Sequence record: OQ708376.1
DNA length: 64,000 nucleotides
Reading direction: 5' to 3' (one strand)
DNA from: Escherichia phage vB_EcoM_CRJP21
The notes under the pieces were generated by a model that made no database searches, was not told the origin of the DNA, and worked only from the letters and a program-made list of their open reading frames with translations. Positions 4,723 through 49,161 of the stretch are shown one piece after another (position 1 is the stretch's first letter; each line of letters opens with the position of its first letter). The position numbers were made by a program, and so were the translations under genes.

Positions 4723-7452
4723 ATGTCATCAAAACGAATTATAGGAAGTGCCGAGATCCTTGGGAACTTGGCAATTGGACAAAGGTACGCTATGCGTACT
4801 TTTAATGGAACCTCACCGAATGCCAATACTGGAATTGTTCAATATCCAATATATAAGCGTTCAGAAGTTCAAAGTATTTTAGATATGTTGCCTATATCAC
4901 GTGTAGGAGAAATGGATTACTTGCCATTAAACGTAAGTGGGTCGTATGAAGGTGCTACACCTATGTCAAGTGACCAAGTAGTTCAGCCAACAATTATTGA
5001 AGATGATGGAACCGCCGTTGTTCTGCGTAGCGGAACCAATGGTAGTACTAAAGGTTTTTATTATTCATTTATACGAGAACTCCGAAATATAACTATGATT
5101 TCACAAGAAAGTGTTATTTCCACCAATTCAATGTATAAACCTTCAATTATGAGTAGTACTGAAAATATTAAGTATTTTATTGGCTCTAATGGTTATGAGA
5201 TGCTTGGATGTTTAAGTACAGAAGATAATTATATTTTCACTTTAACAAATGGTACATTCAACGAAATTTCACATATTCACGCTAAAGTTCCAAGTACATC
5301 ATTTGGAAATGATATGCCATTATACGTTCATATTGTAGGTTCTAAAGTATATATTTGGTGTAAAGATAAAAGTGTTTCTAATTTAGGATTAGCACTTTCA
5401 ATTTATACAGTAGAGCTAAGTGATGTGAAAGCAAGCTCAATGGCATCATTAACAAAAGTTACTGGATTATCAGGGCAAACTGTTCGAAATACAAGTTATT
5501 CTGCATCTAATAACATAAGAGTGTTTGATAGATTATATAGTGTTGGTACTAGCTCGGATTCATTATTCGAAGTTACATCACCAGTCTCACGTGTAGAATT
5601 TTCGGATTATACAGACTTTAATATACAAGCAAACGTTAGTACTGATTTATCCAAAATACGTGTAACTTTATACCCAACACATAGAATGGTTACACCTTTA
5701 TATATTTCAACAGTGTATGGTACTGGTATCAGTTTTGTTTATAATATAAACTCAAAATCTATGTCACTAGATGGTTCTGCTCGTGCTCCTGCGACAGTTT
5801 CATATAATAATGGCTTCCAAGTTACAAACCCATTTGAAATAGATATGGTAAACTTTACTGGAACAACAGCTACCGGAGTTTTAGGTAATGCTGGTGGGTT
5901 ATGTCAAACAAAAGATGGTCTTGTATTTGCATCTAAATTCAGATGGAGTTCTACTGAATTTTATGGTTTACAAAGATATAAAGTTAATGGTACACCATTT
6001 GATTCATGGGTAGCCAGTACTAGATCCGCAAGTAACGTTATAAATACAAACGTTTTACCAGTTTTTGGTAGTGCTGTTGGTGCAAACCTATTAGGTGTAC
6101 GTTTCATCGATAATAGAAAAATATTATTAGCATGTTCTGGTACGTATGATGATGTAACATATAATTATAATAATACTGTTTTTTCTGAAATAGGCCCACA
6201 ACCAACATATCAATATAACTCAGTTCAACATAATACTACATTAAATGGTTTTGCACCACAATCTAATCGTAAACAAATAGGTGATGATTTTACATACACT
6301 GCTATGATTTCTCTTGTTGATACCGATGGTAGTGTTAGATGTTATGGAACATCATTCATTGAAGGTGTATATAAAACAAGTGGTGGATTATTAAACCCAG
6401 ATACTTTAGAATTTGATGAAACATATACAATAGAACCAACGGTATTAGAATCATTAAAACAAGATATTTTTGCTAATCTAGGAAACTCTGGCATTGTTGG
6501 TACACTATCTGGACAAATTGTATTATATTATGTACCTGATAATACTTTTTCTAAATCCATTGCAGTAGTTTCAGCATATAATCTTAACAATAACCAAGGT
6601 TATGCAATTTATGCCGAAGTTGATGTTGTATTATCTGGATCTAACATAACTTCAGCTACATTGGTAAGTACTAGATATGAGACACTTAGTTCTGTTACAG
6701 GAATTATTACTGAAGCATATATGAAACGTTGTACTGGTCTAACAGTTGCTAAATATTCAGGATTTGGTTATATTGGTGTTGATGCAGTTCATCAATTTTC
6801 ACAACCAGGTAATGCACAATTTAAGATGATGATAGCTAAAACAGTAAATGGTGTCATAACATCAAATCGTTTTTTATCATCTAGTTACATCCAACTCGGT
6901 GCAGCATATCAACATGGTGTTATTCCTGGTGTTGGTTTTGGATATTACAATTTTCAAGATTCTGACTATCAAACCAAATCTGTATTCAGCGTTTTTGGTA
7001 CAACATCTGCTGAAATGGATGGTTTAATTAGCGGAAATGGTAGCGTTAAAGAAAAGATTGTGGTAGTATCACAAGACGTTGCACAAGGATTCTCAGTGTA
7101 CTTTACACGTGAAGTTCCGGTATTTTTAGGTGGAATTTTCGACAGACTACCTATACAAAGTGTAGATTTAAGTACTGTAAAAAATAATCCAGCTAATACT
7201 ACGTTCTATTTGTATATACAAATGAACAGGAATACTAAGAAAGCTTCATATGTTATTAGTACTGAAACTATTGATGAATCTTTAACTAGCACTTACATTG
7301 GTAAGATAGTTACTGGAACTTCAGGAATTACTTCGATTGATACTGAAAAAGTGACTCGTTTTTTGACATATCGCCCAAGTACAACGAAACGTGGTTCAGC
7401 GATACCTGCCAGTACTGGTGTACCGTCTGGGTCAGGCACACGTTGGAAATAA
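4723..7452 (+). CDS. large paralog C (909 aa) of the same family
   Basis: ATG at 4723 after aaggaaaag RBS (track ORF begins 4633); shared N- and C-terminal modules, ends GSAIPASTGVPSGSGTRWK. Confidence 0.6.
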   Translation: MSSKRIIGSAEILGNLAIGQRYAMRTFNGTSPNANTGIVQYPIYKRSEVQSILDMLPISRVGEMDYLPLNVSGSYEGATPMSSDQVVQPTIIEDDGTAVVLRSGTNGSTKGFYYSFIRELRNITMISQESVISTNSMYKPSIMSSTENIKYFIGSNGYEMLGCLSTEDNYIFTLTNGTFNEISHIHAKVPSTSFGNDMPLYVHIVGSKVYIWCKDKSVSNLGLALSIYTVELSDVKASSMASLTKVTGLSGQTVRNTSYSASNNIRVFDRLYSVGTSSDSLFEVTSPVSRVEFSDYTDFNIQANVSTDLSKIRVTLYPTHRMVTPLYISTVYGTGISFVYNINSKSMSLDGSARAPATVSYNNGFQVTNPFEIDMVNFTGTTATGVLGNAGGLCQTKDGLVFASKFRWSSTEFYGLQRYKVNGTPFDSWVASTRSASNVINTNVLPVFGSAVGANLLGVRFIDNRKILLACSGTYDDVTYNYNNTVFSEIGPQPTYQYNSVQHNTTLNGFAPQSNRKQIGDDFTYTAMISLVDTDGSVRCYGTSFIEGVYKTSGGLLNPDTLEFDETYTIEPTVLESLKQDIFANLGNSGIVGTLSGQIVLYYVPDNTFSKSIAVVSAYNLNNNQGYAIYAEVDVVLSGSNITSATLVSTRYETLSSVTGIITEAYMKRCTGLTVAKYSGFGYIGVDAVHQFSQPGNAQFKMMIAKTVNGVITSNRFLSSSYIQLGAAYQHGVIPGVGFGYYNFQDSDYQTKSVFSVFGTTSAEMDGLISGNGSVKEKIVVVSQDVAQGFSVYFTREVPVFLGGIFDRLPIQSVDLSTVKNNPANTTFYLYIQMNRNTKKASYVISTETIDESLTSTYIGKIVTGTSGITSIDTEKVTRFLTYRPSTTKRGSAIPASTGVPSGSGTRWK

Positions 7453-7459
7453 TTTTAAA

Positions 7460-7486
7460 GCTCGTCTATTGACGGGCTTTTCTTTT
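7460..7486 (+). terminator. intrinsic terminator
   Basis: gctcgtc-tatt-gacgggc hairpin (one G-U pair) plus ttttctttt. Confidence 0.6.
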
Positions 7487-7497
7487 ATGTGTATAAT
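7469..7497 (+). promoter_or_regulatory. sigma70-type early promoter
   Basis: TTGACG, 17-nt spacer, TATAAT; overlaps the terminator hairpin. Confidence 0.65.
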
Positions 7498-7519
7498 TGA
7501 ATAAAAATAGGAGGAAATT

Positions 7520-8086
7520 ATGGTTAAATCTTTGCTACCACCACCAAAACGTCATAAAATCAAAGAAATGAAAGAACAACGTACATTAAAGATGTACAAC
7601 AATTTAGTTCAGTTACTGTGTAAAAGTCCATCGCTCAAAGCAGAGTTTAAAACTGATGATGACCGCAAAGCACTAATTGAGATGAAGTATATGCTCAGTA
7701 AAATGTCCTTTTACAAATTTGTAAAAGAATACACAACTGACCCATTTAGTCCTCGTTGGAGATCCAAACCAAGAGAGTATTTTTACGGTGGTTCATATAC
7801 GGATCGCATTCAAGACACAGTGATGGGAGTTGAATTTGAAATCGATTATGAGCCGAATGGTGTGGAAAGCTGGCCGATTGAGAAACGTTTACCAAGTGAA
7901 GAAGAAATTTATGTTTATGCAAGAAAACTTTCAAATTTCAGTTCAAGAATTACTCTAGGCAATTTAGATTCATTTATTATTTTCTATACACGTGTTGGTG
8001 TAGATAAAATGGTAACTAAACTCAATGAACTTTCATTACAACAAAAACAGATTAATGCATACAAAGACATTACTGATTTATACTAA
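7520..8086 (+). CDS. hypothetical protein, tandem paralog 1 of 3
   Basis: AGGAGG RBS; shares D-D-R-K-x-L-I-E-x-K-Y-x-L-S-K block with the next two ORFs. Confidence 0.6.
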   Translation: MVKSLLPPPKRHKIKEMKEQRTLKMYNNLVQLLCKSPSLKAEFKTDDDRKALIEMKYMLSKMSFYKFVKEYTTDPFSPRWRSKPREYFYGGSYTDRIQDTVMGVEFEIDYEPNGVESWPIEKRLPSEEEIYVYARKLSNFSSRITLGNLDSFIIFYTRVGVDKMVTKLNELSLQQKQINAYKDITDLY

Positions 8087-8098
8087 TGAGGAATGGAT

Positions 8099-8614
8099 AT
8101 GTTTTTTGGATCAGTTGGAAAACAAAACAGTACTTTAATTTGGCATGAAATTATCTTTAAAATTATATCTAAAAGCTACTCACTAAAGGATATTATTACC
8201 ACAGATAATGATAGACGTATCCTGTTAGATGCAAAATATAAATTGAGCAAACACCCTTTACTTTCTTTAATCATTGATTACGTTTGTGATTATGAATCTA
8301 GTCGTTGGAAGTGGGAAGACGGCGGTTTATTTCGTGGAAAAACATTCTACGGTGCGGAACGATATGTTTTCAGTGATACATCAAATGGCGTTAAGTTTGT
8401 TATTAGAAACTTTAACTCCAAAGAAAATGATTATCTTGAAAGTGGAGTGAAAGTATATATCGATAATAATAGCAATGTACTAACATATGACGAATCACTA
8501 ATTATGTTACAAATAATGCGTGGTGTTGAAGGTGTAAGAAACAACCTTACTAAATTGAAAATCCAGCAAAATGATATACATAATAGACAGAAAATTAAGG
8601 GTTTATATAAATGA
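8099..8614 (+). CDS. hypothetical protein, tandem paralog 2 of 3
   Basis: ATG 6 nt after GAGGA; shared motif NDRRILLDAKYKLSK. Confidence 0.6.
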   Translation: MFFGSVGKQNSTLIWHEIIFKIISKSYSLKDIITTDNDRRILLDAKYKLSKHPLLSLIIDYVCDYESSRWKWEDGGLFRGKTFYGAERYVFSDTSNGVKFVIRNFNSKENDYLESGVKVYIDNNSNVLTYDESLIMLQIMRGVEGVRNNLTKLKIQQNDIHNRQKIKGLYK

Positions 8615-9120
8615 TTTCATTTTTCAAAAAGAAACAAAAAGTTGATGAAACCGGATTAGAATCGTTTCTATGGACTCTTATCATCAAAAAAAGTCCATTG
8701 ATAAAAGAATATGCTATCAATGATGCTAATAGAAAAACTATCATTGAATACAAATATGAATTATCTAAATGTGATCCAATTGTTTATCACTTTGCGAAGT
8801 ACTGTTCAAAAAATTTATCGGATATCACAATCTACCACGAGTCAGTCCCAATGAGTTTTCCTTATGGTGATTGGGTAGATACTTTTGATATTTTTGATGG
8901 GTCAAATGGTTTCAGTTTCTTTTACTCGTCAAATAAAGCAAGTGTTCGTATTAAAACAGACATAGGTTGGACAAAGCATAGCTCAAATAAAGAAGATTAT
9001 AATTTATTAGCTGACGTATACCGAAGTGTGAAGAATTCAAAGGATATTGATGAAAGAATTAAAAAGCAAAATCGTATATCTTTATCACTTGAAACATACA
9101 AGTCAAAGTATGGTGGTTAA
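8611..9120 (+). CDS. hypothetical protein, tandem paralog 3 of 3
   Basis: ATGA overlap with upstream stop; shared motif NRKTIIEYKYELSK. Confidence 0.6.
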   Translation: MISFFKKKQKVDETGLESFLWTLIIKKSPLIKEYAINDANRKTIIEYKYELSKCDPIVYHFAKYCSKNLSDITIYHESVPMSFPYGDWVDTFDIFDGSNGFSFFYSSNKASVRIKTDIGWTKHSSNKEDYNLLADVYRSVKNSKDIDERIKKQNRISLSLETYKSKYGG

Positions 9121-41721: not shown

Positions 41722-42702
41722 ATGGCTAAAAAAATTAATGAAGCACAAGTTAAAATCGATATCGCAGGTTTAGAATCTGATGATTTGGAAACTCTATCAC
41801 GTATGTTAGCTCTTGCTGGTCAAGCTGAACGTCAAGACCCAGTAGTTGCCGCTCCAGTACCATCTATGGGGTCTATGACTCCATCTCTTCCACCTATTGC
41901 TCCACTAGATCTCGATTCTATTGGTGCTGAAGAAGAAATTGGTGGAATTGAAACTTCAGTTGAAGACCCACTAGCAGCGGCAGTTGATGATCTTTCCGCT
42001 GATGTTGGTGATTTTGGTGCTGACACAGATGAAGTTAGTATGGATGCTGAATTTTCAGAACCAGGTGTAGAAGGTGAAGAAGATTTTTCTCTTGACCTTA
42101 GTGGTCAACCTCAACTAGAATCAGTTGAAGAAGACGATGAGGAAGAAGAAGAAATTATTGAAGAAGAATTCGATTTTAGTCGTATGCTATCTCTTGCTGG
42201 TATTAACGAAGAAGAAGACGAAGATTTTTCAGTAGAGGGTAATCCTGCTACCGATAAAGAAATGAAAGATACCCAATTTCTACCAGATCTAAGTATCTCT
42301 GAAGATGAAGAACCATCTAACAGTACTGATTATGGTCCATATGAAACAGAAGCTGATGCCGTTCGTGATGGTCAACTAAAGACTAATGGTGTTGAAGGTG
42401 ACCATTTTGTTGTAATTGCAAAAGGCAATCAATTTTATTGGAGACGTGTTGTAGATGAAGATCTTGACAATCGTCCAGAACCTGAGTATTATGATAATGA
42501 AGGGAACGAAAATCGTGTTCATAAATTTGAACCAAAATTCCCAGGCACTGCATTAGGAGATAACCCACTAAATGTTAATGAAAGTGAAGAAGATGATTCA
42601 CCTGAAGGTAACATTGACTTGGAAGATGATTCTGATGAAGAAGTAGAAGATATTTTTGAAAGTCTCCAAGAAAAATACAAGAAATTTTTAGGAGACAAAT
42701 AA
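41722..42702 (+). CDS. highly acidic repeat protein
   Basis: Asp/Glu-rich; SRMLALAGQ and SRMLSLAGINEEED repeats. Confidence 0.5.
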   Translation: MAKKINEAQVKIDIAGLESDDLETLSRMLALAGQAERQDPVVAAPVPSMGSMTPSLPPIAPLDLDSIGAEEEIGGIETSVEDPLAAAVDDLSADVGDFGADTDEVSMDAEFSEPGVEGEEDFSLDLSGQPQLESVEEDDEEEEEIIEEEFDFSRMLSLAGINEEEDEDFSVEGNPATDKEMKDTQFLPDLSISEDEEPSNSTDYGPYETEADAVRDGQLKTNGVEGDHFVVIAKGNQFYWRRVVDEDLDNRPEPEYYDNEGNENRVHKFEPKFPGTALGDNPLNVNESEEDDSPEGNIDLEDDSDEEVEDIFESLQEKYKKFLGDK

Positions 42703-42703
42703 T

Positions 42704-43099
42704 ATGCAATATAATTATCGTGAACTAGTTGAAGCGTTAGACGAAATTACCGGAAGAGATGAAGACGAAAGTTTTTCAGTTGAAGTTGAATCCGATGTTG
42801 TAGCAGTTGATGTTCTTAAGGATATTACCAAATGTCTTATTGATATTGTTGATAAGATTAAATCTGGTGAAGACCAAAAAGAAATTGTAGATAAACTACA
42901 AAAAGCCTGTGACATTTTGTCTGACATTCGATATAATGATGAAAGTACTGAAGTTGCTGATGAAGAAGTGTTGGAAGCCATTGCAGGTTGTTTTGGAACT
43001 GAAGGTATGGGACCATCAATTGACAAAGAAGGCGTACAACACTATAATGAGCCTGGTGCACCATCTTATGCTGCACGTCAAGGTTTTGTTGGAGACTAA
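42704..43099 (+). CDS. hypothetical acidic protein
   Basis: 131-aa ORF immediately after previous stop. Confidence 0.45.
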   Translation: MQYNYRELVEALDEITGRDEDESFSVEVESDVVAVDVLKDITKCLIDIVDKIKSGEDQKEIVDKLQKACDILSDIRYNDESTEVADEEVLEAIAGCFGTEGMGPSIDKEGVQHYNEPGAPSYAARQGFVGD

Positions 43100-43102
43100 T
43101 AT

Positions 43103-43483
43103 ATGTTTCCAGAACCATCACATAACAGTACTGAATATCAAAATAATGTACTTTCCAAAGTTAGGGAAGTACATGAATCAGATTCAGAAATAACAGACCG
43201 TATGCTTCTGATGTCAATTTTTGAAAATTTCAGAACTGGCGGTGGTTTACGTCTTAGCAAGTTTGGGTATGGAATTTGTAAAGAAAATAATCTTTATGAA
43301 TTTACCAAAATCCCCTTGCAAAGAGAATTTAAAAGTTCTATAATGTTTACATCACTTGACAGAATATGTACTTCACCTTATTATGTTGAAGGTCAGTACA
43401 TATATCTGACAGATGCAATGATAATAACTGAATTAACATTGTGTTGTGATGATTTTAAACAGTTATTTTCTATTCATATGTAA
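43103..43483 (+). CDS. hypothetical protein
   Basis: 126-aa ORF. Confidence 0.45.
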   Translation: MFPEPSHNSTEYQNNVLSKVREVHESDSEITDRMLLMSIFENFRTGGGLRLSKFGYGICKENNLYEFTKIPLQREFKSSIMFTSLDRICTSPYYVEGQYIYLTDAMIITELTLCCDDFKQLFSIHM

Positions 43484-43506
43484 GAAAAATGAATTAAAAA
43501 TAAATG

Positions 43507-43534
43507 TTGACAAGATAGAATGATGTGATACAAT
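43507..43534 (+). promoter_or_regulatory. sigma70-type promoter, copy 1 of tandem pair
   Basis: TTGACA, 16 nt, TACAAT. Confidence 0.6.
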
Positions 43535-43599
43535 AAGCATCAGACATAAAGTTTTCAAGCGACACAAGATGTGAGTTTGAAAAAAAAGAAAAAAAGTGA

Positions 43600-43627
43600 T
43601 TGACAAGTTGAAACGATGTGATATAAT
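43600..43627 (+). promoter_or_regulatory. sigma70-type promoter, copy 2 of tandem pair
   Basis: TTGACA, 16 nt, TATAAT; near-identical to the copy 93 bp upstream. Confidence 0.65.
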
Positions 43628-43796
43628 GTTCACATCAAGACAGCAAAGAGATTTACCTTTTAAACACACGGATGATTCATGAAGTAACAAAGGAACTGAT
43701 AAGTTAAATTATTTTAACACAGTTCCTTTACTTTTGCCCACGGATTGGCTATAATAGAAACTTAAACGATTTTATCCAACAAAAGGAAATATATAC

Positions 43797-45122
43797 ATGA
43801 CTACTCAAAACGATATCCTGAACGTTAAACTGACTCCAAAGAAAGCTAAAGAAGCAATGGCACTAGCTGACATGATTCAAGATAGCCTGATGATTTGGGG
43901 TAGCCCAGGTATCGGTAAGTCTGCAATCGCTCGTCAATACGCTGATGAAAATTACCCACTGCGTAAAGATAACGTAGCTAAAATCGAGTTCATGAAACAA
44001 CAAATCGAAGCTGACCCTGAAAATGCTGATCAGCTACGCCGTGAACTGGCTGCATTTGAAGCAAAACTAATCGACCAAGATACTAACTTTATCGATTTCC
44101 GTTTGTCTCAAATCGAACCAAGTGACCTTCGCGGTATTCCAGTACCAGAGAAGCTTTTCCGTAAAACTGACGGTTCTCTTCTGAAAGAATCTGAGCTTGC
44201 CGAAGCAAAAGATTATGTAGCTGAAACTGCGGTAGTATGGGCTGCACCTAAAGTTCTGAAATTGTCCGAAGATTGGAAAGGTGTTATTCTGTTTGACGAA
44301 ATTAACTCTGCAATGCCTATTGTTCAGGCAGCGTCTTATCAGCTAATCCTCGACCGTTGTGTTGGTGAGATGAAGCTACCTAAGACTGCACTGATTCTTG
44401 CAGCAGGTAACCGTGAAACTGATGGCGGTGTAACTTTCTCTCTTGCTACACCACTGCGTGACCGTATGACTCACATTGAGATGATTCCTTATCATCAAGA
44501 TTGGATTAACGATTATGCGATTGCAAAACGTTTGAACCCAGCAACTGTTGCGTTCATCAACAACACTGGTTCTAAGTACTTTAACACACTTAGTCCACAA
44601 GATCCTTCTCACAGTGGTGGTACTTCTCCACGTTCATGGGAAGCAGTAGCACGCTACGAAGATCTCAAGAAAACTAAGACAATTGATAAAGAAGTGTTCC
44701 GTGCAATGATTGCTGGTCGTGTTGGTGAAGGTGTTGCAACTGAATACATTGAGTACGTTGAGAACGTTGCTAAATTACCAGATACTATGTCTATTCTGTC
44801 TGGTGAAATCAAAGAAATCGACGCAACGCTGGATATTTCTGCGAACTACTTTATCACTCTGAACTTGGTTTATAAAATTATCGACCTGTTCAATGAGAAG
44901 CAAGAACAACGTCTACCAGTGGAAGAATGGGGTAAACTGTGTAACAACTTCATCACCTTCCTAGACCATAACTTCTCTGCAACTCAAGCAGAACTGGCAG
45001 TACTGGCAATTCGTACCATCACGCTTCATAAGGTTGCGATTTCCATTAAAGATGTACCAGCGTTTAAAGATTTCATCGCTAAGTACTCTGATCTTGTACG
45101 TAAAGCACGCTCTCTTGGCTAA
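43797..45122 (+). CDS. MoxR-type AAA+ ATPase
   Basis: Walker A GSPGIGKS, Walker B ILFDEINSA; paired with downstream VWA protein. Confidence 0.7.
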   Translation: MTTQNDILNVKLTPKKAKEAMALADMIQDSLMIWGSPGIGKSAIARQYADENYPLRKDNVAKIEFMKQQIEADPENADQLRRELAAFEAKLIDQDTNFIDFRLSQIEPSDLRGIPVPEKLFRKTDGSLLKESELAEAKDYVAETAVVWAAPKVLKLSEDWKGVILFDEINSAMPIVQAASYQLILDRCVGEMKLPKTALILAAGNRETDGGVTFSLATPLRDRMTHIEMIPYHQDWINDYAIAKRLNPATVAFINNTGSKYFNTLSPQDPSHSGGTSPRSWEAVARYEDLKKTKTIDKEVFRAMIAGRVGEGVATEYIEYVENVAKLPDTMSILSGEIKEIDATLDISANYFITLNLVYKIIDLFNEKQEQRLPVEEWGKLCNNFITFLDHNFSATQAELAVLAIRTITLHKVAISIKDVPAFKDFIAKYSDLVRKARSLG

Positions 45123-45142
45123 TTAACAAAGAGTTGTTGACA

Positions 45143-45174
45143 AGAAGGATGCCTAATGGTATCCTTCTTTTATC
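45143..45174 (+). terminator. hairpin / weak terminator
   Basis: agaaggat-10 nt loop-atccttct plus interrupted T-run. Confidence 0.35.
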
Positions 45175-45196
45175 TTAACTAAACGAGGAAATATAC

Positions 45197-46621
45197 ATGT
45201 CAGATAACAAATCTACTTCAAGATTCAATGAAGTATCTCCGGCACTCCAGAAAGAATGTCAAGAACGTCTGGTTCTGGCTCGTACATCTTTGATGTTAAC
45301 TGCACCATTCTTTGGTGTACTCGCTTCACGTTTACGTCCAGTTCCTAATAATACATGGTGTCGTACTCTAGCAGTGGATGGTAAACATCTATTCTACAAC
45401 GTAGAATTTGTAATGGGCATTCAAGACCCATCTAAAAAGAAAGAATATGAAGAAGCTATTCGTGAAAAGCACCCTGAAGTTACAGACGAACAATTAAAAG
45501 AAATGACTGAAGGTTTGACTGATGAAAACCTTGTTGCTGTAATTTGTCATGAAATTCTACACTGTGCTTACGATCACTTCCTTCGTCGTGGTATGCGTGA
45601 TCCACAACGTTATAACCGTGCAGCGGATTATGCCATTAACCAAATCATCGTTCGTGAGAAAATTGGGAAAATCCAAAGTTCATGGTTGTATGATAAAAAA
45701 TATGAAGGCATGACCGCAGAAGAGATTTACATTCTTCTTGAAGAAGAAGAACAAAAAGAAGATGGTGAAGGTGAAGGTCAACCACAAAGTGGCGGCGGTG
45801 AAGGTGAAGGTAAAAATCGCGGTACTTTTGGCGATATTAAAGATGGTAAGGGTAAACCAAAAGGTACTACCATTGACCAGCATGACGTTCCACAAGAAGG
45901 TCAAGAGGGTGGTTCAAGTGAACAGCAAAAACGTGATTACATGGATGATTTCAAAACAGCAATGATGAATGCTGCTCGTGCAGGTGGTACACCAGCAGAA
46001 ATCGCTCGTATGATTAACAACTTTAAAGAACCAAAGATTGACTGGCGTTCAAAACTTCAACGTACACTTCGTAGTTGGTTGAAGTCTGATGCAACATATC
46101 AAAATCCGAATCGTCGTTCTTGGGGTGCAGGTTTTGGTTCTAATGGCTCATTCTATGGTAATCCAATTTACCCAGGGATGAAACCAGATGATGATATTGA
46201 TATTGCGATTGCACTAGATGCTTCTGGGTCTATTTCTGAAGATATGCTTCGTGATTTCATTAGTGAAGTTCTTGGCATCACTAAACAATTCAAACAGTTT
46301 AAGATTCGTATCATGACTTTTGATACTGAAGTTTATACTGTAAAGGATTACAAAACTGGCGAAGAACGTAAGATTCTGGAATATCCAGTAAAAGGTGGTG
46401 GTGGTACTGACTTTGAAGCAGTATGGGTTCATATGAAGAACGACAACTACAAGCCTAAACAGCTTGTAATGTTTACTGATGGTGAACCGTGGCAGTCATG
46501 GGGTGATCCAAACTACTGTAAAACACTGTTCGTGATTCACAGTAACCCAAATAAAGTTGCACCATTTGGTGAGACTGTACACTACGAATATGAAGCTGAT
46601 AAAAAGCGTCAACGTAGTTAA
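45197..46621 (+). CDS. VWA-domain protein with N-terminal HExxH metallopeptidase-like domain
   Basis: HEILHCAYDH; MIDAS DASGS with downstream FDTEV and FTDGEP; Gly/Glu low-complexity linker. Confidence 0.7.
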   Translation: MSDNKSTSRFNEVSPALQKECQERLVLARTSLMLTAPFFGVLASRLRPVPNNTWCRTLAVDGKHLFYNVEFVMGIQDPSKKKEYEEAIREKHPEVTDEQLKEMTEGLTDENLVAVICHEILHCAYDHFLRRGMRDPQRYNRAADYAINQIIVREKIGKIQSSWLYDKKYEGMTAEEIYILLEEEEQKEDGEGEGQPQSGGGEGEGKNRGTFGDIKDGKGKPKGTTIDQHDVPQEGQEGGSSEQQKRDYMDDFKTAMMNAARAGGTPAEIARMINNFKEPKIDWRSKLQRTLRSWLKSDATYQNPNRRSWGAGFGSNGSFYGNPIYPGMKPDDDIDIAIALDASGSISEDMLRDFISEVLGITKQFKQFKIRIMTFDTEVYTVKDYKTGEERKILEYPVKGGGGTDFEAVWVHMKNDNYKPKQLVMFTDGEPWQSWGDPNYCKTLFVIHSNPNKVAPFGETVHYEYEADKKRQRS

Positions 46622-46633
46622 GTACTAAATAAT

Positions 46634-46662
46634 GAGAACGGAAAATTCCGTTCTCTTCTTTT
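46634..46662 (+). terminator. intrinsic terminator
   Basis: gagaacgg-aaaatt-ccgttctc plus ttctttt. Confidence 0.7.
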
Positions 46663-46687
46663 ATAAGTGGGACAACTTATAAAAATA

Positions 46688-46696
46688 TGATATAAT
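46688..46696 (+). promoter_or_regulatory. extended -10 promoter candidate
   Basis: TGaTATAAT. Confidence 0.4.
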
Positions 46697-46730
46697 AGTT
46701 AATGTACCAATATACATGGAGAGTATTAAA

Positions 46731-46976
46731 ATGGAACAAGAAAATAATCAAATTCAACTAACCCTTCTAGACCTAATCAATGCTGCAAAAATCATGGAAG
46801 CTGCTGTTGCACGAAACACCTTTAAAGTTGAAGAACTTGTTGAGGTTGCTCCAGTTGTATCTAAATTTGTTTCTTTTGCAAATGTAGCTCTTGAAGATAT
46901 TAAAGCACAAGAAGATGCAGCTAAAGAAGAAGCTGAATCACAAGATAGTGAAACTCAAGAAGATAAAGGAGAATAA
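46731..46976 (+). CDS. hypothetical acidic protein
   Basis: ATG after ggagag. Confidence 0.45.
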   Translation: MEQENNQIQLTLLDLINAAKIMEAAVARNTFKVEELVEVAPVVSKFVSFANVALEDIKAQEDAAKEEAESQDSETQEDKGE

Positions 46977-46978
46977 TT

Positions 46979-47635
46979 ATGGCAGCTATTCGTCATGTTG
47001 GTGTAATGCGTAATACAGGTTCTCGTGTTTTTGTTGTTTGGCGTTCACTACCAGATGATCCTGAACACTGCCTTATCGTTTATCGTGATTCACTACCAGA
47101 AGCATATGTACACGCAGTAACTGATATTGTTATGGGTCATGGTCAATCTAATATTGATTTGTGGGAAGTAATGCATAAAATTGGTTATCTCGATGGACGC
47201 AAAATGCTAGATGTTCTACACAACATGCAGCATCTACGTCGCGTTCGTACTTGTGATATTGATATGCACACTGGTGGTAATAATAAAATTTCTCTTGATG
47301 TTCTAAACAAAGCATTAGATGAAAATCAAGCGAAAGTACAAGAAGATGGTAAAGTAAAAGACTTTAACCCATTCAATCCACAAGAAGCAGACACTAAAGT
47401 AGAAGAAGCTACTATTGTAGAACAACTTCTCACTGATGCACAAAAATATGAAAAACTGGCTAAAGAACATTATGAACGTGCATACAATTTAGAGCCAAGC
47501 TTGCGTCCGCAAACACAAGTTGTTGAACAACCGAAAGATAGTAAAACAATTTATCTAGAAATTCCAGAAGGTATTTCACAGACTAAAGCTATTGAGAAAG
47601 TAAAACAACTATTTGCAGAACGTAAAGCAAAATAA
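46979..47635 (+). CDS. hypothetical protein
   Basis: 218-aa ORF. Confidence 0.5.
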   Translation: MAAIRHVGVMRNTGSRVFVVWRSLPDDPEHCLIVYRDSLPEAYVHAVTDIVMGHGQSNIDLWEVMHKIGYLDGRKMLDVLHNMQHLRRVRTCDIDMHTGGNNKISLDVLNKALDENQAKVQEDGKVKDFNPFNPQEADTKVEEATIVEQLLTDAQKYEKLAKEHYERAYNLEPSLRPQTQVVEQPKDSKTIYLEIPEGISQTKAIEKVKQLFAERKAK

Positions 47636-47638
47636 AAT

Positions 47639-48232
47639 ATGAAAAAGAATGAATTAGATGAAGCAATTAAAGGTTTATCTAATGTATGTTTTAGTGGCGG
47701 GGCAGCAGGTGCTGACCGCCTTTTTTCTATCTATGCAAAAAATAATGGATTTGAAGTTATTAATTTTTCATTCAAAGGTCATGAGCATAGTGTAGATGAA
47801 AGTACTATATTAGAAATACCATCCAATATTCTATCTGATATTTCTATATTAAATCAACTAAACATTGCATGTTACTCGTTGCAGCGAAAAGTACCAAAAC
47901 CTGGTTCTTATGTTTACAACTTACTTGCAAGGAATAGTTATCAGATACTTAATACAGAAAGAATATATTGTATTGCAAATATCACATCACCAACTAAGGT
48001 AAGTGGTGGTACTGCATGGGCAGTACAGATGTATATGGATTCAGTTGAAAATCCTGAAATTTATTGTTATGATATGAATTCACGTTCAGTATTTTATTTC
48101 GATACAGTACTGAAAGAGTTCACACAAACATTCGTCGTTCCAGCACCACATGGTAACTGGACTGGTATTGGTTCACGCAATGCCACAGAAAAACATATGG
48201 AACATTTTATTACATTTTTCAAGGAAGAATAA
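47639..48232 (+). CDS. Rossmann-type DprA/SLOG-like protein (tentative)
   Basis: FSGGAAGADRLFSIYA glycine-rich loop. Confidence 0.3.
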   Translation: MKKNELDEAIKGLSNVCFSGGAAGADRLFSIYAKNNGFEVINFSFKGHEHSVDESTILEIPSNILSDISILNQLNIACYSLQRKVPKPGSYVYNLLARNSYQILNTERIYCIANITSPTKVSGGTAWAVQMYMDSVENPEIYCYDMNSRSVFYFDTVLKEFTQTFVVPAPHGNWTGIGSRNATEKHMEHFITFFKEE

Positions 48233-49161
48233 TGAAACAACTACAAGAACTATATCAAAAAATTCTAGATGAAGGCGTAGAAAGCGTTGACCGTACTGGT
48301 GTTGGAACAATCAAACTTATCGGTCAACAAATGCGTTTTGACCTTAAAGATGGTTTCCCAGCAGTGACGACAAAACGTCTAGCTTGGAAAGCAATGACTT
48401 CAGAATTACTATGGTTTATTGAAGGTTCCCATGATGAGCGTCGCCTTTGTGAAATTTTGCATGGAACTCGTGATACAGAAAAGAAAACTATTTGGACAGA
48501 TAATTACCTAAATCAAGGCGTTGCTCTTGGTTATACTGATGGTGAGTTAGGTCCAGTGTATGGTAAGCAATGGCGTGAATGGGAAGATTATAAATTTAGT
48601 TCCAGTACTGAAGAAATTCAAGAATTAAAAGATAAAGGATACAAAGTTATCGATTATACTGGTTCACATGGTGTTGTTATGAAACGTACAACTGACCAAT
48701 TACAGGAACTAATCAATGGTATAAATTCCGATCCATATGGTCGTCGCCATATTCTAAGTGCATGGAACGTTGGTGAGCTTGATGATATGACGTTGCCACC
48801 TTGTCATAGCTTTGTACAATTTTGTGTAGTACAAGGGAAACTAAGCTGCATTCTACATCAAAGATCCGCTGATCTATTTTTGGGAGTTCCATTTAATATC
48901 AGTAGTTATTCACTACTAACTCATATGATTGCACAAATTACGGGTTTAGATGTTGGTGAATTTATTTGGAATGGTGGTGATTGCCACATTTATAAAAACC
49001 ACGTTGAACAAGTAAAAGAACAACTACAGAGAAAACCTCGTGAATTACCTGAATTATGGCTTGATCCTACAATTACTAATATTGAAGATTTCACAATGGA
49101 TTCTTTCAAATTAGTGAATTACAATCCAATGCCAACAATTAAAGCACCGATGGCTGTATAA
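48232..49161 (+). CDS. td: thymidylate synthase
   Basis: RTGVGT, PPCH active-site Cys context, DLFLGVPFNISSYSLL. Confidence 0.9.
   Translation: MKQLQELYQKILDEGVESVDRTGVGTIKLIGQQMRFDLKDGFPAVTTKRLAWKAMTSELLWFIEGSHDERRLCEILHGTRDTEKKTIWTDNYLNQGVALGYTDGELGPVYGKQWREWEDYKFSSSTEEIQELKDKGYKVIDYTGSHGVVMKRTTDQLQELINGINSDPYGRRHILSAWNVGELDDMTLPPCHSFVQFCVVQGKLSCILHQRSADLFLGVPFNISSYSLLTHMIAQITGLDVGEFIWNGGDCHIYKNHVEQVKEQLQRKPRELPELWLDPTITNIEDFTMDSFKLVNYNPMPTIKAPMAV

What the first reader, a model, noticed from the sequence alone, without database searches (positions are those of the whole stretch)
43507..46621. MoxR-type AAA+ ATPase plus HExxH/VWA protein pair driven by a duplicated consensus promoter
Seen: a 441-aa protein with Walker A GSPGIGKS and Walker B ILFDEINSA is followed by a 474-aa protein with an N-terminal HExxH site (HEILHCAYDH) and a C-terminal VWA domain with MIDAS DASGS. 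The pair sits behind two near-identical sigma70-like promoters 93 bp apart (43507-43534 and 43600-43627) and is closed by a terminator. Established: MoxR ATPases work with VWA partners as metal-dependent remodelling chaperones; such pairs occur in phages, often annotated CobS/CobT-like, with unknown roles. Inference: a two-component remodelling or insertion machine, possibly protease-linked, whose target is unknown; the promoter duplication implies very early, strong expression, consistent with host takeover or anti-defence.
Basis: partly seen in the sequence, partly recalled or inferred. Interest (0 to 1): 0.7.

Follow-up and report, generated by a model that had tools for sequence, protein, structure and literature searches.

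The report
Known phage MoxR ATPase–VWA protease pair
This is a real but already described gene pair of large virulent phages (the N4 gp24/gp25 family): an AAA+ motor and a partner that joins a zinc-protease domain to a metal-dependent binding domain; its target is still unknown.

Summary
The window is an Asteriusvirus jumbo coliphage, 100% identical to PBECO4, and the genes are 121Q gp563/gp564.

**The proteins**
- gp563 is a MoxR-class AAA+ ATPase. Its closest solved folds are NorQ and CbbQ, and two insertions keep it below Pfam thresholds.
- gp564 is PF13203 (zincin, invariant HExxH) plus PF09967 (VWA-like, complete MIDAS).

**Already known.** Public records label the genes 'MoxR ATPase', 'N4 gp24-like' and 'N4 gp25-like'. 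Iyer et al. 2021 described exactly this MoxR–vWA–metallopeptidase pair in jumbo phages and proposed a role in virion assembly. It occurs in about 700-800 phage records, and the partner family has about 14,800 cluster representatives, including bacterial chromosomes.

**Not supported.** Nothing here backs 'very early, host takeover or anti-defence'.
- The tandem promoter is far beyond chance but is confined to Asteriusvirus.
- A conserved terminator-like hairpin separates the promoters from the ATPase gene.
- N4 homologues are middle genes.

**Modest new detail.** A terminator-like hairpin between the two genes recurs in 75% of adjacent pairs in distant phages, against 8% of control gaps. This fits more motor than adaptor, but the counts are not phylogenetically independent.

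Function remains untested. Interest is low to moderate.

The parts
43487..43534 (+). Promoter-like site P1: A-rich upstream stretch, -35 TTGACA (43507-43512), 16-nt spacer, TGn, -10 TACAAT (43529-43534).
   Evidence: 11/12, TG. One search shows a 48-nt direct repeat with P2. One search found the pair in 0 of 200 simulations. Conserved in BF17 and A4 but absent from RaK2, GAP32 and pEa50.
43580..43627 (+). Promoter-like site P2: A-rich upstream stretch, -35 TTGACA (43600-43605), 16-nt spacer, TGn, -10 TATAAT (43622-43627).
   Evidence: 12/12, TG. The single RaK2/Muenster promoter has the same layout.
43689..43739 (+). Leader hairpin: AAAGGAACTG...CAGTTCCTTT with an inner GTTAAA/TTTAAC stem, followed by a U-rich tail TTTACTTTTG. 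Terminator-like or attenuator-like.
   Evidence: 10-nt perfect inverted repeat; -17.6 kcal/mol, z -4.5, 0/200 shuffles. The G17 record annotates it as a terminator. Present with compensatory arm changes in RaK2, GAP32, pEa50 and a Yen9-04-like contig.
43727..43755 (+). Third, weaker promoter-like site P3: TTTACT-17-TATAAT. It overlaps the hairpin's 3' arm.
   Evidence: 10/12. Identical in BF17 and A4. RaK2 has TATCAT in place of TATAAT, and GAP32 and pEa50 have no equivalent. The ACGGATT-N3-TATAAT motif is not enriched in the window.
43797..45122 (+). MoxR-class AAA+ ATPase (121Q gp563, phAPEC6 gp265c, N4 gp24-like), 441 aa, 49.5 kDa. Walker A 43899-43922; Walker B 44286-44312; sensor-1 AAGNR 44400-44414; PLRDRMTH with invariant R223 44451-44474; SPRSW with invariant R279 44625-44639.
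   Evidence: motifs and invariant residues; AF2 model, pLDDT 86.6; top folds NorQ, NorQD, CbbQ2; homologues hit AAA_5, AAA_3, bpMoxR; phrog_1297, 3e-107; record note 'MoxR ATPase'.
45142..45179 (+). Intercistronic hairpin: 12-bp stem, 4-nt loop, with a U-rich tail. A weak promoter-like site (TTGACA at 45137, TGGTATCCT) overlaps it.
   Evidence: (-21.8 kcal/mol, z -6.7). Conserved in position with different sequence in BF17, GAP32 and pEa50. 44 of 59 adjacent pairs in distant viral contigs have one, against 13 of 167 control gaps.
45197..46621 (+). Zincin metallopeptidase + VWA-like protein (121Q gp564, phAPEC6 gp264c, N4 gp25-like), 474 aa, 54.1 kDa. HExxH 45548-45577; NRAADYAIN 45614-45640; low-complexity Gly/Glu/Lys linker 45740-45865; invariant DxH 45872-45886; MIDAS DASGS 46217-46231, GGGGT 46394-46414, FTDG 46469-46486.
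46634..46665 (+). Intrinsic terminator closing the unit: GAGAACGGA-AAAT-TCCGTTCTC plus a T-tract.
   Evidence: (z -4.9); annotated in G17. Conserved in position in BF17, GAP32 and pEa50.

Best explanation
**What it is.** The locus is a self-contained transcription unit encoding a cytoplasmic two-protein machine of the N4 gp24/gp25 family.

**Components.**
- gp563 is a MoxR-class AAA+ ATPase. Hexamer formation is inferred, not shown.
- gp564 is both adaptor and effector. It has a C-terminal VWA-like domain with a complete MIDAS site. It has an N-terminal zincin domain with an invariant HExxH. A flexible low-complexity linker lies within the N-terminal part.

**Proposed mechanism, by analogy with NorQ-NorD and CbbQ-CbbO (inferred).**
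1. The MIDAS metal binds an acidic residue of a client protein.
2. The ATPase ring engages the VWA domain and uses ATP to twist or stretch the adaptor and client.
3. The fused zincin then cuts the exposed client.

**Most likely clients.** Phage proteins during particle assembly, as Iyer et al. 2021 proposed. This step is the weakest.

**Expression.** Transcription starts at host sigma70-type promoters, tandem in Asteriusvirus. It passes a leader terminator-like hairpin. A second terminator-like hairpin between the genes probably keeps the protease-adaptor less abundant than the motor.

**Shown here:** domain identities, conserved catalytic and MIDAS residues, gene linkage, and the promoter and hairpin signals with their conservation.

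**Inferred:** complex formation, proteolysis, the client, timing and attenuation.
For: **Identity**
- 100% DNA identity to PBECO4 and 99.2% to 121Q.
- PF13203 and PF09967 well above threshold.
- Invariant HExxH and DxSxS..T..D across 45 homologues down to about 42% identity.
- Invariant K41, S42, E168, N205, R223 and R279 in the ATPase family, with D167 >=90% conserved.
- The AF2 model has a beta-hairpin insert after helix 2 and a pre-sensor-1 hairpin.
- Best solved folds are NorQ and NorQD (9qh4, 9qhd; TM about 0.6 normalised to the target) and CbbQ2.
- The VWA fold matches include NorD and midasin MIDAS domains.
- Homologues without the insertions hit AAA_5 at 3e-11, AAA_3 at 2e-10, and bpMoxR.

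**Partnership**
- An ATPase homologue lies upstream on the same strand in all 39 genome loci with enough upstream sequence.
- The VWA/zincin gene lies downstream in 74 of 80 viral loci.
- Both genes are core genes of N4-like phages (PMC4193335).

**Mechanism template**
- The NorQD cryo-EM work shows how a MoxR ring acts on its VWA partner (PMC13036017).

**Assembly role**
- The published prediction cites the Acidianus two-tailed virus precedent (PMC7824862).
- The unit sits directly after virion structural genes in four genera.
- The ATPase was detected in phAPEC6 virion mass spectrometry, with 6 peptides and 19% coverage.
- N4-like roseophages have virion-protein genes next to their gp24/25 homologues.

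**Stoichiometry**
- Stable intercistronic hairpin.
- It is conserved across genera with different sequence.
- It is found in 44 of 59 adjacent pairs against 13 of 167 control gaps.
Against: - No experiment addresses function.
- Proteolysis is inferred only from a conserved HExxH. The third zinc ligand is unclear, and no solved relative of the N-domain was found.
- The compact 127-residue VWA-like domain shows no obvious finger insertion of the kind that enters the NorQ pore. A complex could not be modelled.
- The window ATPase itself is below Pfam thresholds for AAA_3 and AAA_5.

Against an assembly role:
- The promoters are host-type and the unit is insulated from the late structural genes upstream.
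- N4 homologues are middle genes.
- The 121Q and GAP32 records do not label either protein structural, although they label the neighbours so.
- The phAPEC6 virion list also contains thymidylate synthase, so the ATPase may be carry-over.
- Chromosomal homologues exist without any phage context.

On the hairpin statistics: 63 of the 74 viral loci fall in one cluster at 50% identity, so the counts are not independent.
Confidence: 0.55

Rival explanations
1. One reading: a very early, strongly expressed host-takeover or counter-defence machine that remodels or cleaves a host protein.
For: - Consensus sigma70-type promoters with TGn and A-rich upstream regions, duplicated, far beyond chance.
- A separate transcription unit embedded after late structural genes.
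- N4 homologues are not late genes.
- The VWA/zincin protein was not found in virion proteomes.
Against: - The pair is core and widespread. It is in 684-815 phage records across several families. The partner family has 14,776 cluster representatives.
- It is also found in bacterial chromosomes. Counter-defence genes are usually variable and accessory (my own background knowledge).
- The promoter duplication is genus-specific.
- A conserved terminator-like hairpin lies between the promoters and the genes.
Confidence: 0.2
2. A metal-cofactor insertion or enzyme-activating chaperone of the NorQD, CbbQO or CoxDE type, serving a phage enzyme such as one in nucleotide metabolism. In this reading the HExxH domain acts as a metal-binding or docking domain rather than a protease.
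For: - The closest solved folds are NorQ and CbbQ.
- 12 of 45 homologues hit VWA_CoxE.
- Neighbours downstream are a SLOG/DprA-like protein and ThyA.
- An environmental phage has ThyX a few genes downstream.
- In N4-like phages the pair lies among nucleotide-metabolism genes.
Against: - The Glu of HExxH is invariant, which points to hydrolysis.
- ThyA needs no metal (my own background knowledge).
- ThyX lies within 6 kb in only 2 of 44 genome loci, so the neighbourhood link is lineage-specific.
- No candidate metalloenzyme is consistently linked.
Confidence: 0.1
3. Regulatory rival: P1 and P2 mainly produce a short leader RNA of about 100-200 nt that ends at the 43689-43739 hairpin. The pair is then expressed from the proximal site P3, or only by regulated read-through. 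In that case the strong tandem promoters do not set the level or timing of the proteins.
For: - The hairpin plus U-rich tail is conserved with compensatory changes in four genera, is stable, and is annotated as a terminator in G17.
- P3 is identical in three Asteriusvirus lineages.
- The leader segment ACCUUUU (43655-43661) is complementary to the ribosome-binding site AAAAGGA (43781-43787) and pairs with it in the predicted fold.
Against: - GAP32 and pEa50 have no P3-like site, so expression there must come from read-through.
- The distance and sequence between promoter and hairpin vary (about 55 to 150 nt). Rfam finds nothing. A conserved small RNA is therefore unlikely.
- The anti-RBS pairing shows no covariation because both sides are invariant.
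Confidence: 0.25
4. Database labels: the pair is a cobaltochelatase or Mg-chelatase (CobS/CobT-like), or gp564 is an HNH endonuclease.
For: - PHROG 1314 and many GenBank records name gp564 'HNH endonuclease'.
- There is a weak Mg_chelatase hit on the P-loop only.
Against: - No HNH family hit at E <= 0.1 for gp564 or at E <= 1 among the 25 most-matched families of its 45 homologues.
- The N-domain is a zincin, not a BchD/CobT-type AAA-like domain.
- Mg_chelatase scores 16.4 bits against a cut-off of 20.3.
- No CobN/BchH-like large protein is among the window's large ORFs.
Confidence: 0.02

Closest known systems
Coliphage N4 gp24 (AAA ATPase) and gp25 (vWFA protein); core genes of N4-like phages
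   Same: Homologous proteins in the same order on the same strand. tblastn finds N4-like phages such as G7C, Ka3 and the Vibrio N4-likes. Public records of RaK2, Muenster, K64-1 and phAPEC6 state the N4 gp24/gp25 similarity. Function is unknown in both.
   Different: The jumbo-phage ATPase carries two insertions: a helical hairpin at about residues 55-95 and an enlarged beta-hairpin at about 114-149. The partner has an extra segment of about 35 residues in the zincin domain. N4-like phages often have one to three small ORFs between the two genes. In N4 the genes are read by the phage's own middle RNA polymerase (my background knowledge; one search gives only the middle class), not from sigma70 promoters.
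MoxR AAA+ - vWA(+metallopeptidase) chaperone-cochaperone pair of 'group 2.2' jumbo phages (Iyer, Anantharaman, Krishnan, Burroughs, Aravind 2021, PMC7824862)
   Same: The architecture is exactly as described: MoxR ATPase plus a vWA protein with an N-terminal metallopeptidase domain. The paper cites the RaK2 genome and mentions coliphage 121Q.
   Different: Nothing substantive. This locus is a member. I could not confirm that the example accessions ASV44729.1 and ASV44728.2 are orthologues of these particular genes.
NorQ-NorD and CbbQ-CbbO (MoxR CGN subfamily with VWA partners)
   Different: Sequence identity is only 12-15%. NorD and CbbO have no peptidase domain. They have a finger insertion that enters the pore, which is not evident in gp564. 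Their clients are known (cNOR, Rubisco) and the outcome is metal insertion or inhibitor release, not cleavage.
Acidianus two-tailed virus p618 (MoxR) and p892 (VWA)
   Same: A virus-encoded MoxR-VWA pair implicated in virion (tail) development. It is the precedent cited for the assembly hypothesis.
   Different: It is an archaeal virus and has no peptidase domain. Homology was not tested here.
RavA-ViaA of E. coli
   Same: A MoxR ATPase with a VWA partner. The motor is present in excess over the partner, at about 350 against 90 molecules per cell (PMC3893208 abstract).
   Different: It has no peptidase, a different partner architecture, and targets respiratory complexes.
AAA+ motor plus metalloprotease systems (FtsH; Cdc48/p97 with Wss1/SPRTN)
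   Same: They share the functional logic: an ATP-driven unfoldase or segregase coupled to a zincin protease.
   Different: There is no homology beyond the superfamily level. Here the protease is on a separate VWA adaptor and the motor is MoxR-class. This is an analogy from my own knowledge and was not tested.

Membership tests
MoxR-class AAA+ ATPase (helix-2-insert clade) | Walker A GxxGxGK[ST] and Walker B hhhhDE | tested here: met
   GSPGIGKS at 35-42 and ILFDE at 164-168. K41, S42 and E168 are invariant and D167 is >=90% conserved in 43 sequences.
MoxR-class AAA+ ATPase (helix-2-insert clade) | Sensor-1 Asn, Arg finger and sensor-2 Arg conserved | tested here: met
   N205, R223 and R279 are invariant. 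Assigning them to these roles is by position in the fold and is an inference.
MoxR-class AAA+ ATPase (helix-2-insert clade) | Beta-hairpin insert after helix 2, and a pre-sensor-1 beta-hairpin | tested here: met
   In the AF2 model (pLDDT 86.6), strands 114-123 and 140-149 follow the short helix 108-112. A short hairpin at about 187-197 precedes strand 199-205. This evidence is model-based.
MoxR-class AAA+ ATPase (helix-2-insert clade) | Matches the MoxR-type Pfam models (AAA_3, AAA_5) above gathering score | tested here: inconclusive
   The window protein scores 16.7 bits for AAA_3 (cut-off 27) and 15.6 bits for AAA_5 (cut-off 22). Of 43 family members, 24 hit AAA_5 (best 3e-11), 20 hit AAA_3 (best 2e-10) and 10 hit bpMoxR. 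Insertions split the domain in the jumbo-phage clade.
MoxR-class AAA+ ATPase (helix-2-insert clade) | Closest solved structures are MoxR proteins | tested here: met
   The Foldseek top hits are NorQ and NorQD (E about 1e-6, target-normalised TM 0.55-0.63) and CbbQ2. McrB, dynein, midasin and RuvBL follow. A sequence profile against the PDB reaches only the P-loop, with midasin on top.
MoxR-class AAA+ ATPase (helix-2-insert clade) | Encoded next to a VWA-domain partner | tested here: met
   True in the window, in 39 of 39 informative genome loci and in 74 of 80 viral loci.
MoxR-class AAA+ ATPase (helix-2-insert clade) | Hexameric ring with ATPase activity stimulated by the partner | not testable with these tools
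   This needs biochemistry or multimer modelling.
VWA / MIDAS domain (PF09967 VWA-like DUF2201) | VWA alpha/beta fold | tested here: met
VWA / MIDAS domain (PF09967 VWA-like DUF2201) | Complete MIDAS motif DxSxS ... T ... D | tested here: met
   D341, S343, S345, T404 and D428 are all invariant in 45 sequences.
VWA / MIDAS domain (PF09967 VWA-like DUF2201) | Finger insertion that enters the AAA+ pore (as in NorD, CbbO, midasin) | tested here: inconclusive
   The domain spans only residues 336-462 with no long insertion. The disordered 297-330 segment or the 369-386 hairpin could substitute. No complex model was possible.
Zincin metallopeptidase (PF13203 DUF2201_N) | HExxH with conserved catalytic Glu | tested here: met
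   H118, E119 and H122 are invariant. PF13203 scores 123 bits against a cut-off of 23.2.
Zincin metallopeptidase (PF13203 DUF2201_N) | Identified third zinc ligand and a zincin fold related to a solved peptidase | tested here: inconclusive
   Candidate ligands are H127, D144 and D227/H229. There are only weak links to M48 (19 of 45 members, best 4e-5) and to minigluzincin MJ1213 (E 0.42). Fold searches were dominated by the VWA domain.
Zincin metallopeptidase (PF13203 DUF2201_N) | Peptide-bond hydrolysis | not testable with these tools
   This needs an enzyme assay.
N4 gp24/gp25 gene pair | Sequence homology of both proteins to the pair in N4-like phages, in the same order | tested here: met
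   tblastn hits in many phages of about 70-78 kb, including G7C, annotated as ATPase, VWA-like or metallopeptidase. Record notes cite N4 gp24/gp25.
ATP-dependent chelatase (CobST/CobN, BchID/BchH) | VWA subunit with an N-terminal AAA-like domain; Mg_chelatase-type motor | tested here: not met
   The N-domain of gp564 is PF13203 zincin. Mg_chelatase scores 16.4 bits, below the cut-off of 20.3, on the P-loop only.
ATP-dependent chelatase (CobST/CobN, BchID/BchH) | Large CobN/BchH substrate-binding subunit encoded alongside | tested here: not met
   No such hit among the seven largest ORFs of the window. The rest of the phage genome was not searched.
HNH endonuclease (label carried by PHROG 1314 and many records) | HNH/His-Me finger domain | tested here: not met
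   No HNH family at E <= 0.1 for gp564 or at E <= 1 among the 25 most-matched families of its 45 homologues.
Sigma70-type promoter | -35 and -10 hexamers, 16-18 nt spacer, optional TGn and A-rich UP-like region | tested here: met
   P1 is 11/12 and P2 is 12/12, both with TGn. They are beyond chance. P2-type sites are conserved in Asteriusvirus and Alcyoneusvirus.
Sigma70-type promoter | Transcription actually starts there, and early | not testable with these tools
   My literature searches found no transcript data for these phages.

The most novel reading that the evidence does not exclude
The pair could be a distinct class of ATP-dependent protease. In this reading a MoxR ring delivers force to a client captured by the MIDAS site of a separate adaptor. 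The adaptor carries its own zincin active site, unlike FtsH, Lon or Clp. Large virulent phages would use it before particle assembly to cut one specific host or phage protein. The motor-to-protease ratio would be fixed by a conserved intercistronic attenuator, and in Rak2-like phages timing would be gated by a leader terminator.
Probability: 0.2. Interest if true: 0.65.

Novelty: already known. Interest (0 to 1): 0.3.

Why it matters
The pair is a core module of several families of large virulent phages: N4-like, rV5-like, Rak2-like jumbo phages and PA5oct-like phages. It also occurs in many bacteria. No client or phenotype turned up in the searches made here, although the genes were recognised in N4-like phages by 2009 (PMC2784036). 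Working out its target would fill a gap in the biology of phages now used for therapy. It would also show whether MoxR-VWA machines can be coupled to proteolysis. This window adds nothing new about the proteins. It does give a tractable E. coli system and some regulatory detail (tandem promoters, leader terminator, intercistronic terminator) that can be tested directly.

Tried and rejected
- **Single-sequence search of both proteins against PDB sequences.** Only chance-level or P-loop hits.
- **Profile of the ATPase family against PDB sequences.** Only P-loop matches, with midasin on top.
- **Profile of the zincin N-domain against PDB sequences.** Nothing significant; minigluzincin MJ1213 at E 0.42.
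- **NCBIfam and PADLOC.** No meaningful hits.
- **Rfam on 43300-46900.** Nothing. I rejected the idea of a conserved small RNA in the leader, because the distance and sequence between promoter and hairpin vary between genera.
- **ACGGATT-N3-TATAAT as a phage-specific promoter motif.** Not enriched in the window: 7 found against 3.9 expected.
- **Scan of viral contigs for TTGACA-N11-TGTGATAYAAT.** The motif is a generic strong promoter, so the scan was uninformative.
- **Thymidylate synthase linkage.** ThyX lies within 6 kb in only 2 of 44 genome loci, so I rejected it as a general association.
- **Cluster of strong sigma70-like sites inside the upstream coding region (42464-43384).** Only the 42909 site is kept in BF17 and RaK2, so the cluster is probably not functional as a whole.
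- **Literature.** No experimental work on N4 gp24/gp25-type proteins was found. The CRISPRi-ART paper and the RaK2 paper do not mention them. COG3864 gave no papers.
- **Chelatase and HNH endonuclease labels.** Rejected on domain architecture.

Full report
**Where the window comes from.** The 3.3-kb region is 100% identical to Escherichia phages PBECO4 and SHEFM2K. It is 99.2% identical to 121Q, G17 and phAPEC6, all Asteriusvirus jumbo myoviruses of about 350 kb. The two genes are 121Q gp563/gp564 and phAPEC6 gp265c/gp264c.

**Check of the observation.** All quoted features are present.
- The ORFs are 43797-45122 (441 aa) and 45197-46621 (474 aa).
- Walker A, Walker B, HEILHCAYDH and DASGS sit at the positions given in the parts list.
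- P1 (43507-43534, 11/12) and P2 (43600-43627, 12/12) both have a 16-nt spacer, a TGn extension and an A-rich upstream stretch.
- They form a 48-nt direct repeat, 71% identical, spaced 93 nt. The 28-nt cores match at 23/28.
- In 200 Markov simulations of the window, sites of >=11/12 with TGn averaged 0.34. Two on one strand within 150 nt never occurred.
- The terminator at 46634-46655 is real and is annotated in G17.

**What the ATPase is.**
- On its own it only scrapes Pfam thresholds: AAA 21.3 bits, AAA_3 16.7, AAA_5 15.6.
- The family alignment explains why. The jumbo-phage clade has two insertions relative to relatives of about 360 aa: a helical hairpin after the Walker A helix and an enlarged beta-hairpin after helix 2.
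- The shorter relatives hit AAA_5 (3e-11), AAA_3 (2e-10) and bpMoxR.
- K41, S42, E168, N205, R223 and R279 are invariant, and D167 is >=90% conserved.
- The AF2 model is confident (pLDDT 86.6, pTM 0.78) and shows the helix-2 insert and the pre-sensor-1 hairpin.
- Its best solved matches are the NorQ hexamer, NorQD complexes and CbbQ2. I therefore accept MoxR-class membership.

**What the partner is.**
- PF13203 (putative metallopeptidase, 123 bits) plus PF09967 (VWA-like, 75 bits).
- In 45 homologues down to about 42% identity the following are invariant: H118, E119, H122, N140, A142, D144, N148, D227, H229, and the full MIDAS D341, S343, S345, T404, D428.
- The model (pLDDT 74) has a helical N-domain. 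It has disordered Gly/Glu/Lys-rich segments at 191-238 and 297-330. It has a compact VWA domain at 336-462.
- The zincin domain has no detectable solved relative. There are only weak M48 and minigluzincin signals.
- The widespread label 'HNH endonuclease' (PHROG 1314 and GenBank) has no support.

**Distribution and linkage.**
- tblastn finds the partner in 684 and the ATPase in 815 of 50,697 phage records. These include Rak2-like jumbo phages, rV5-like phages of about 140 kb, N4-like phages of about 72 kb, PA5oct-like phages and some cyanophages.
- An exhaustive search gives 14,776 cluster representatives at E <= 1e-3, of which 1,102 are at E <= 1e-30.
- In 44 loci from bacterial and archaeal genome assemblies, every locus with enough upstream sequence (39) has an ATPase homologue upstream on the same strand.
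- At least one locus is plainly chromosomal: a Chromatiaceae chromosome, next to an M48-TPR protease and SoxA. A Brucella locus looks prophage-like.
- In 80 viral contigs, 74 have the partner downstream.

**What is already known.**
- N4 gp24 (AAA ATPase) and gp25 (vWFA) are two of 14 core genes of N4-like phages. They are of unknown function and belong to the middle class (PMC4193335, PMC2784036).
- Iyer et al. [quoted passage not shown] They propose a role in virion assembly with proteolytic processing, citing the Acidianus two-tailed virus precedent (PMC7824862).
- phAPEC6, RaK2, Muenster and K64-1 records already carry MoxR or N4 gp24/gp25 notes.
- The finding is therefore a correct re-discovery.

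**How it probably works.**
- The NorQD cryo-EM study gives the best template. A finger from the VWA domain enters the NorQ pore. [quoted passage not shown] ATP-driven subunit movement rotates the VWA domain and stretches a linker, which remodels the client held at or near the MIDAS site (PMC13036017).
- gp563/gp564 share the motor class, the MIDAS, a linker and an N-terminal domain. They also have an invariant post-sensor-1 loop (NRETDGG) and a conserved partner C-terminus.
- The difference is that the N-terminal domain is a zincin with an intact HExxH.
- My best reading is an ATP-powered, MIDAS-targeted processing protease.
- Shown: domains, residues, linkage. Inferred: complex, cleavage, client.

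**Which client?**
- For virion assembly:
  - The unit follows virion structural genes in four genera.
  - The 49.5-kDa ATPase was found in phAPEC6 virion mass spectrometry.
  - Virion-protein genes lie next to the homologues in N4-like roseophages.
- Against virion assembly:
  - Thymidylate synthase is in the same mass-spectrometry list.
  - 121Q and GAP32 do not flag either protein as structural.
  - The promoters are host-type.
  - N4 homologues are middle genes.
  - Chromosomal homologues exist.
- I put assembly at roughly 0.35-0.4 of the total, a host-directed early role at 0.2 and cofactor insertion at 0.1.

I compared Asteriusvirus (window, BF17, A4), Alcyoneusvirus (RaK2, Muenster, a Klebsiella phage), Mimasvirus GAP32 and Eneladusvirus (pEa50, a Yen9-04-like contig).
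- The tandem promoter is present only in Asteriusvirus. Alcyoneusvirus has one consensus promoter. The other two genera have only an A-tract plus TGGTATAAT.
- In all four genera a hairpin with a U-rich tail lies between the promoter and the ATPase start codon. Its arms show compensatory differences: GGAACTG/CAGTTCC, GGACTG/CAGTCC, GCACTGA/TCAGTGC and GGCACTGA/TCAGTGCC. It is stable (z -4.5) and annotated as a terminator in G17.
- A weaker promoter-like site follows it in Asteriusvirus.
- A second hairpin with a U-tract lies between the two genes in all four genera, with unrelated sequences. It is the most stable element of the locus (-21.8 kcal/mol, z -6.7).
- So the promoters may be strong, but what reaches the genes passes one or two attenuating signals. 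'Very early, strong expression' does not follow from the sequence.

**The intercistronic hairpin is general.**
- In the 80 viral contigs, 59 pairs are adjacent, with typical gaps of 57-141 nt. Of these, 44 (75%) have a terminator-like hairpin in the gap. A further 9 of 15 spaced pairs have one right after the ATPase gene.
- Among other same-strand neighbours in the same contigs, 13 of 167 gaps of 30-160 nt (8%) have one. Among 250-nt coding windows, 11 of 247 do.
- The sample is not independent: 63 of 74 loci fall in one cluster at 50% identity. At 70% identity there are 17 clusters, and 14 have at least one member with a hairpin. The hairpin sequences differ between clusters.
- Some tails read TTATAAT, so a promoter may follow the hairpin in some lineages.
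- The simplest reading is lower expression of the protease-adaptor than of the motor. That fits a ring with a single partner, as the NorQD model describes. It also fits the RavA:ViaA ratio of about 350:90. It would also explain why only the ATPase was seen by mass spectrometry.

**Verdict.** The protein interpretation is right and already published. The expression and role inference is unsupported. Novelty: already known. The conserved attenuator-like hairpins are a small addition worth testing, but they do not change the classification.

Noticed in passing
window 45142-45179; L003, L005, L006; viral loci L057-L136: A terminator-like hairpin between the ATPase and VWA/zincin genes recurs in 44 of 59 adjacent pairs in distant viral contigs, against 13 of 167 control gaps. 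Its sequence differs between lineages. The counts are not phylogenetically independent.
   Followed up: yes
window 43689-43739: A leader hairpin plus U-rich tail lies between the tandem promoters and the ATPase start codon. It is conserved with compensatory arm changes in four Rak2-like genera and annotated as a terminator in phage G17. It is rare outside that group (3 of 80 viral loci).
   Followed up: yes
window 43655-43661 and 43781-43787: The leader segment ACCUUUU is complementary to the ribosome-binding site AAAAGGA and pairs with it in the predicted fold of the P2 transcript. Both sides are invariant in Asteriusvirus and Alcyoneusvirus, so no covariation test is possible.
   Followed up: partly
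window 43727-43755 and flanks: A short box A(C/T)GGAT occurs on both sides of the leader hairpin in all four genera. In Asteriusvirus, TATAAT follows it. The combined motif is not enriched elsewhere in the window.
   Followed up: partly
window 45197-46621 (database labels): PHROG 1314 and many GenBank records call this protein 'HNH endonuclease'. Some rV5-like records call the homologue 'anti-sigma factor'. No HNH domain is detectable, so the HNH label looks like a propagated mis-annotation.
   Followed up: yes
window 42464-43384 (+): Four further sigma70-like sites of >=11/12 (42464, 42909, 43020 at 12/12, 43356) lie inside the coding sequence of the three genes just upstream. That makes 6 of the window's 14 such sites within 1.2 kb. 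Only the 42909 site is kept in BF17 and RaK2.
   Followed up: partly
window 46669-46696 and 46716-49161: Directly after the terminator there is another TGn promoter-like site (GGGACA-16-TATAAT; TGGTATAAT in GAP32 and pEa50). It heads a block of genes: an 86-aa acidic protein, a 218-aa protein of unknown function, a SLOG/DprA-like protein (47639-48232) and thymidylate synthase ThyA (48232-49161).
   Followed up: partly
phAPEC6 virion proteome (PMC7247149), orthologues of window 43797-45122 and 48232-49161: The MoxR ATPase (6 peptides) and thymidylate synthase (3 peptides) are both listed as virion-associated. Either they are abundant carry-over proteins, or non-structural enzymes are packaged.
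   Followed up: no
L031 (Chromatiaceae chromosome CP037918) 4932-8823: A chromosomal copy of the ATPase + zincin/VWA pair is immediately followed by an M48 peptidase with TPR repeats. A SoxA-type cytochrome is nearby. Similar pairs occur in several sulfur-oxidising Gammaproteobacteria (SUP05, Thioglobus, Sedimenticola).
   Followed up: partly
L055/L056 (environmental phage contigs); L011, L012: In some phage lineages ThyX lies a few genes downstream of the pair, where this window and N4-like phages have ThyA. The link does not hold generally (2 of 44 genome loci).
   Followed up: partly
window 41722-42702: A 326-aa virion structural protein (phrog_15988) is extremely rich in Asp and Glu, with long acidic low-complexity runs.
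   Followed up: no
window 43453-43513: An AT-rich inverted repeat (25-nt arms, 80% complementary) spans the stop codon of the upstream gene and the -35 region of P1. It may be chance in AT-rich DNA.
   Followed up: no
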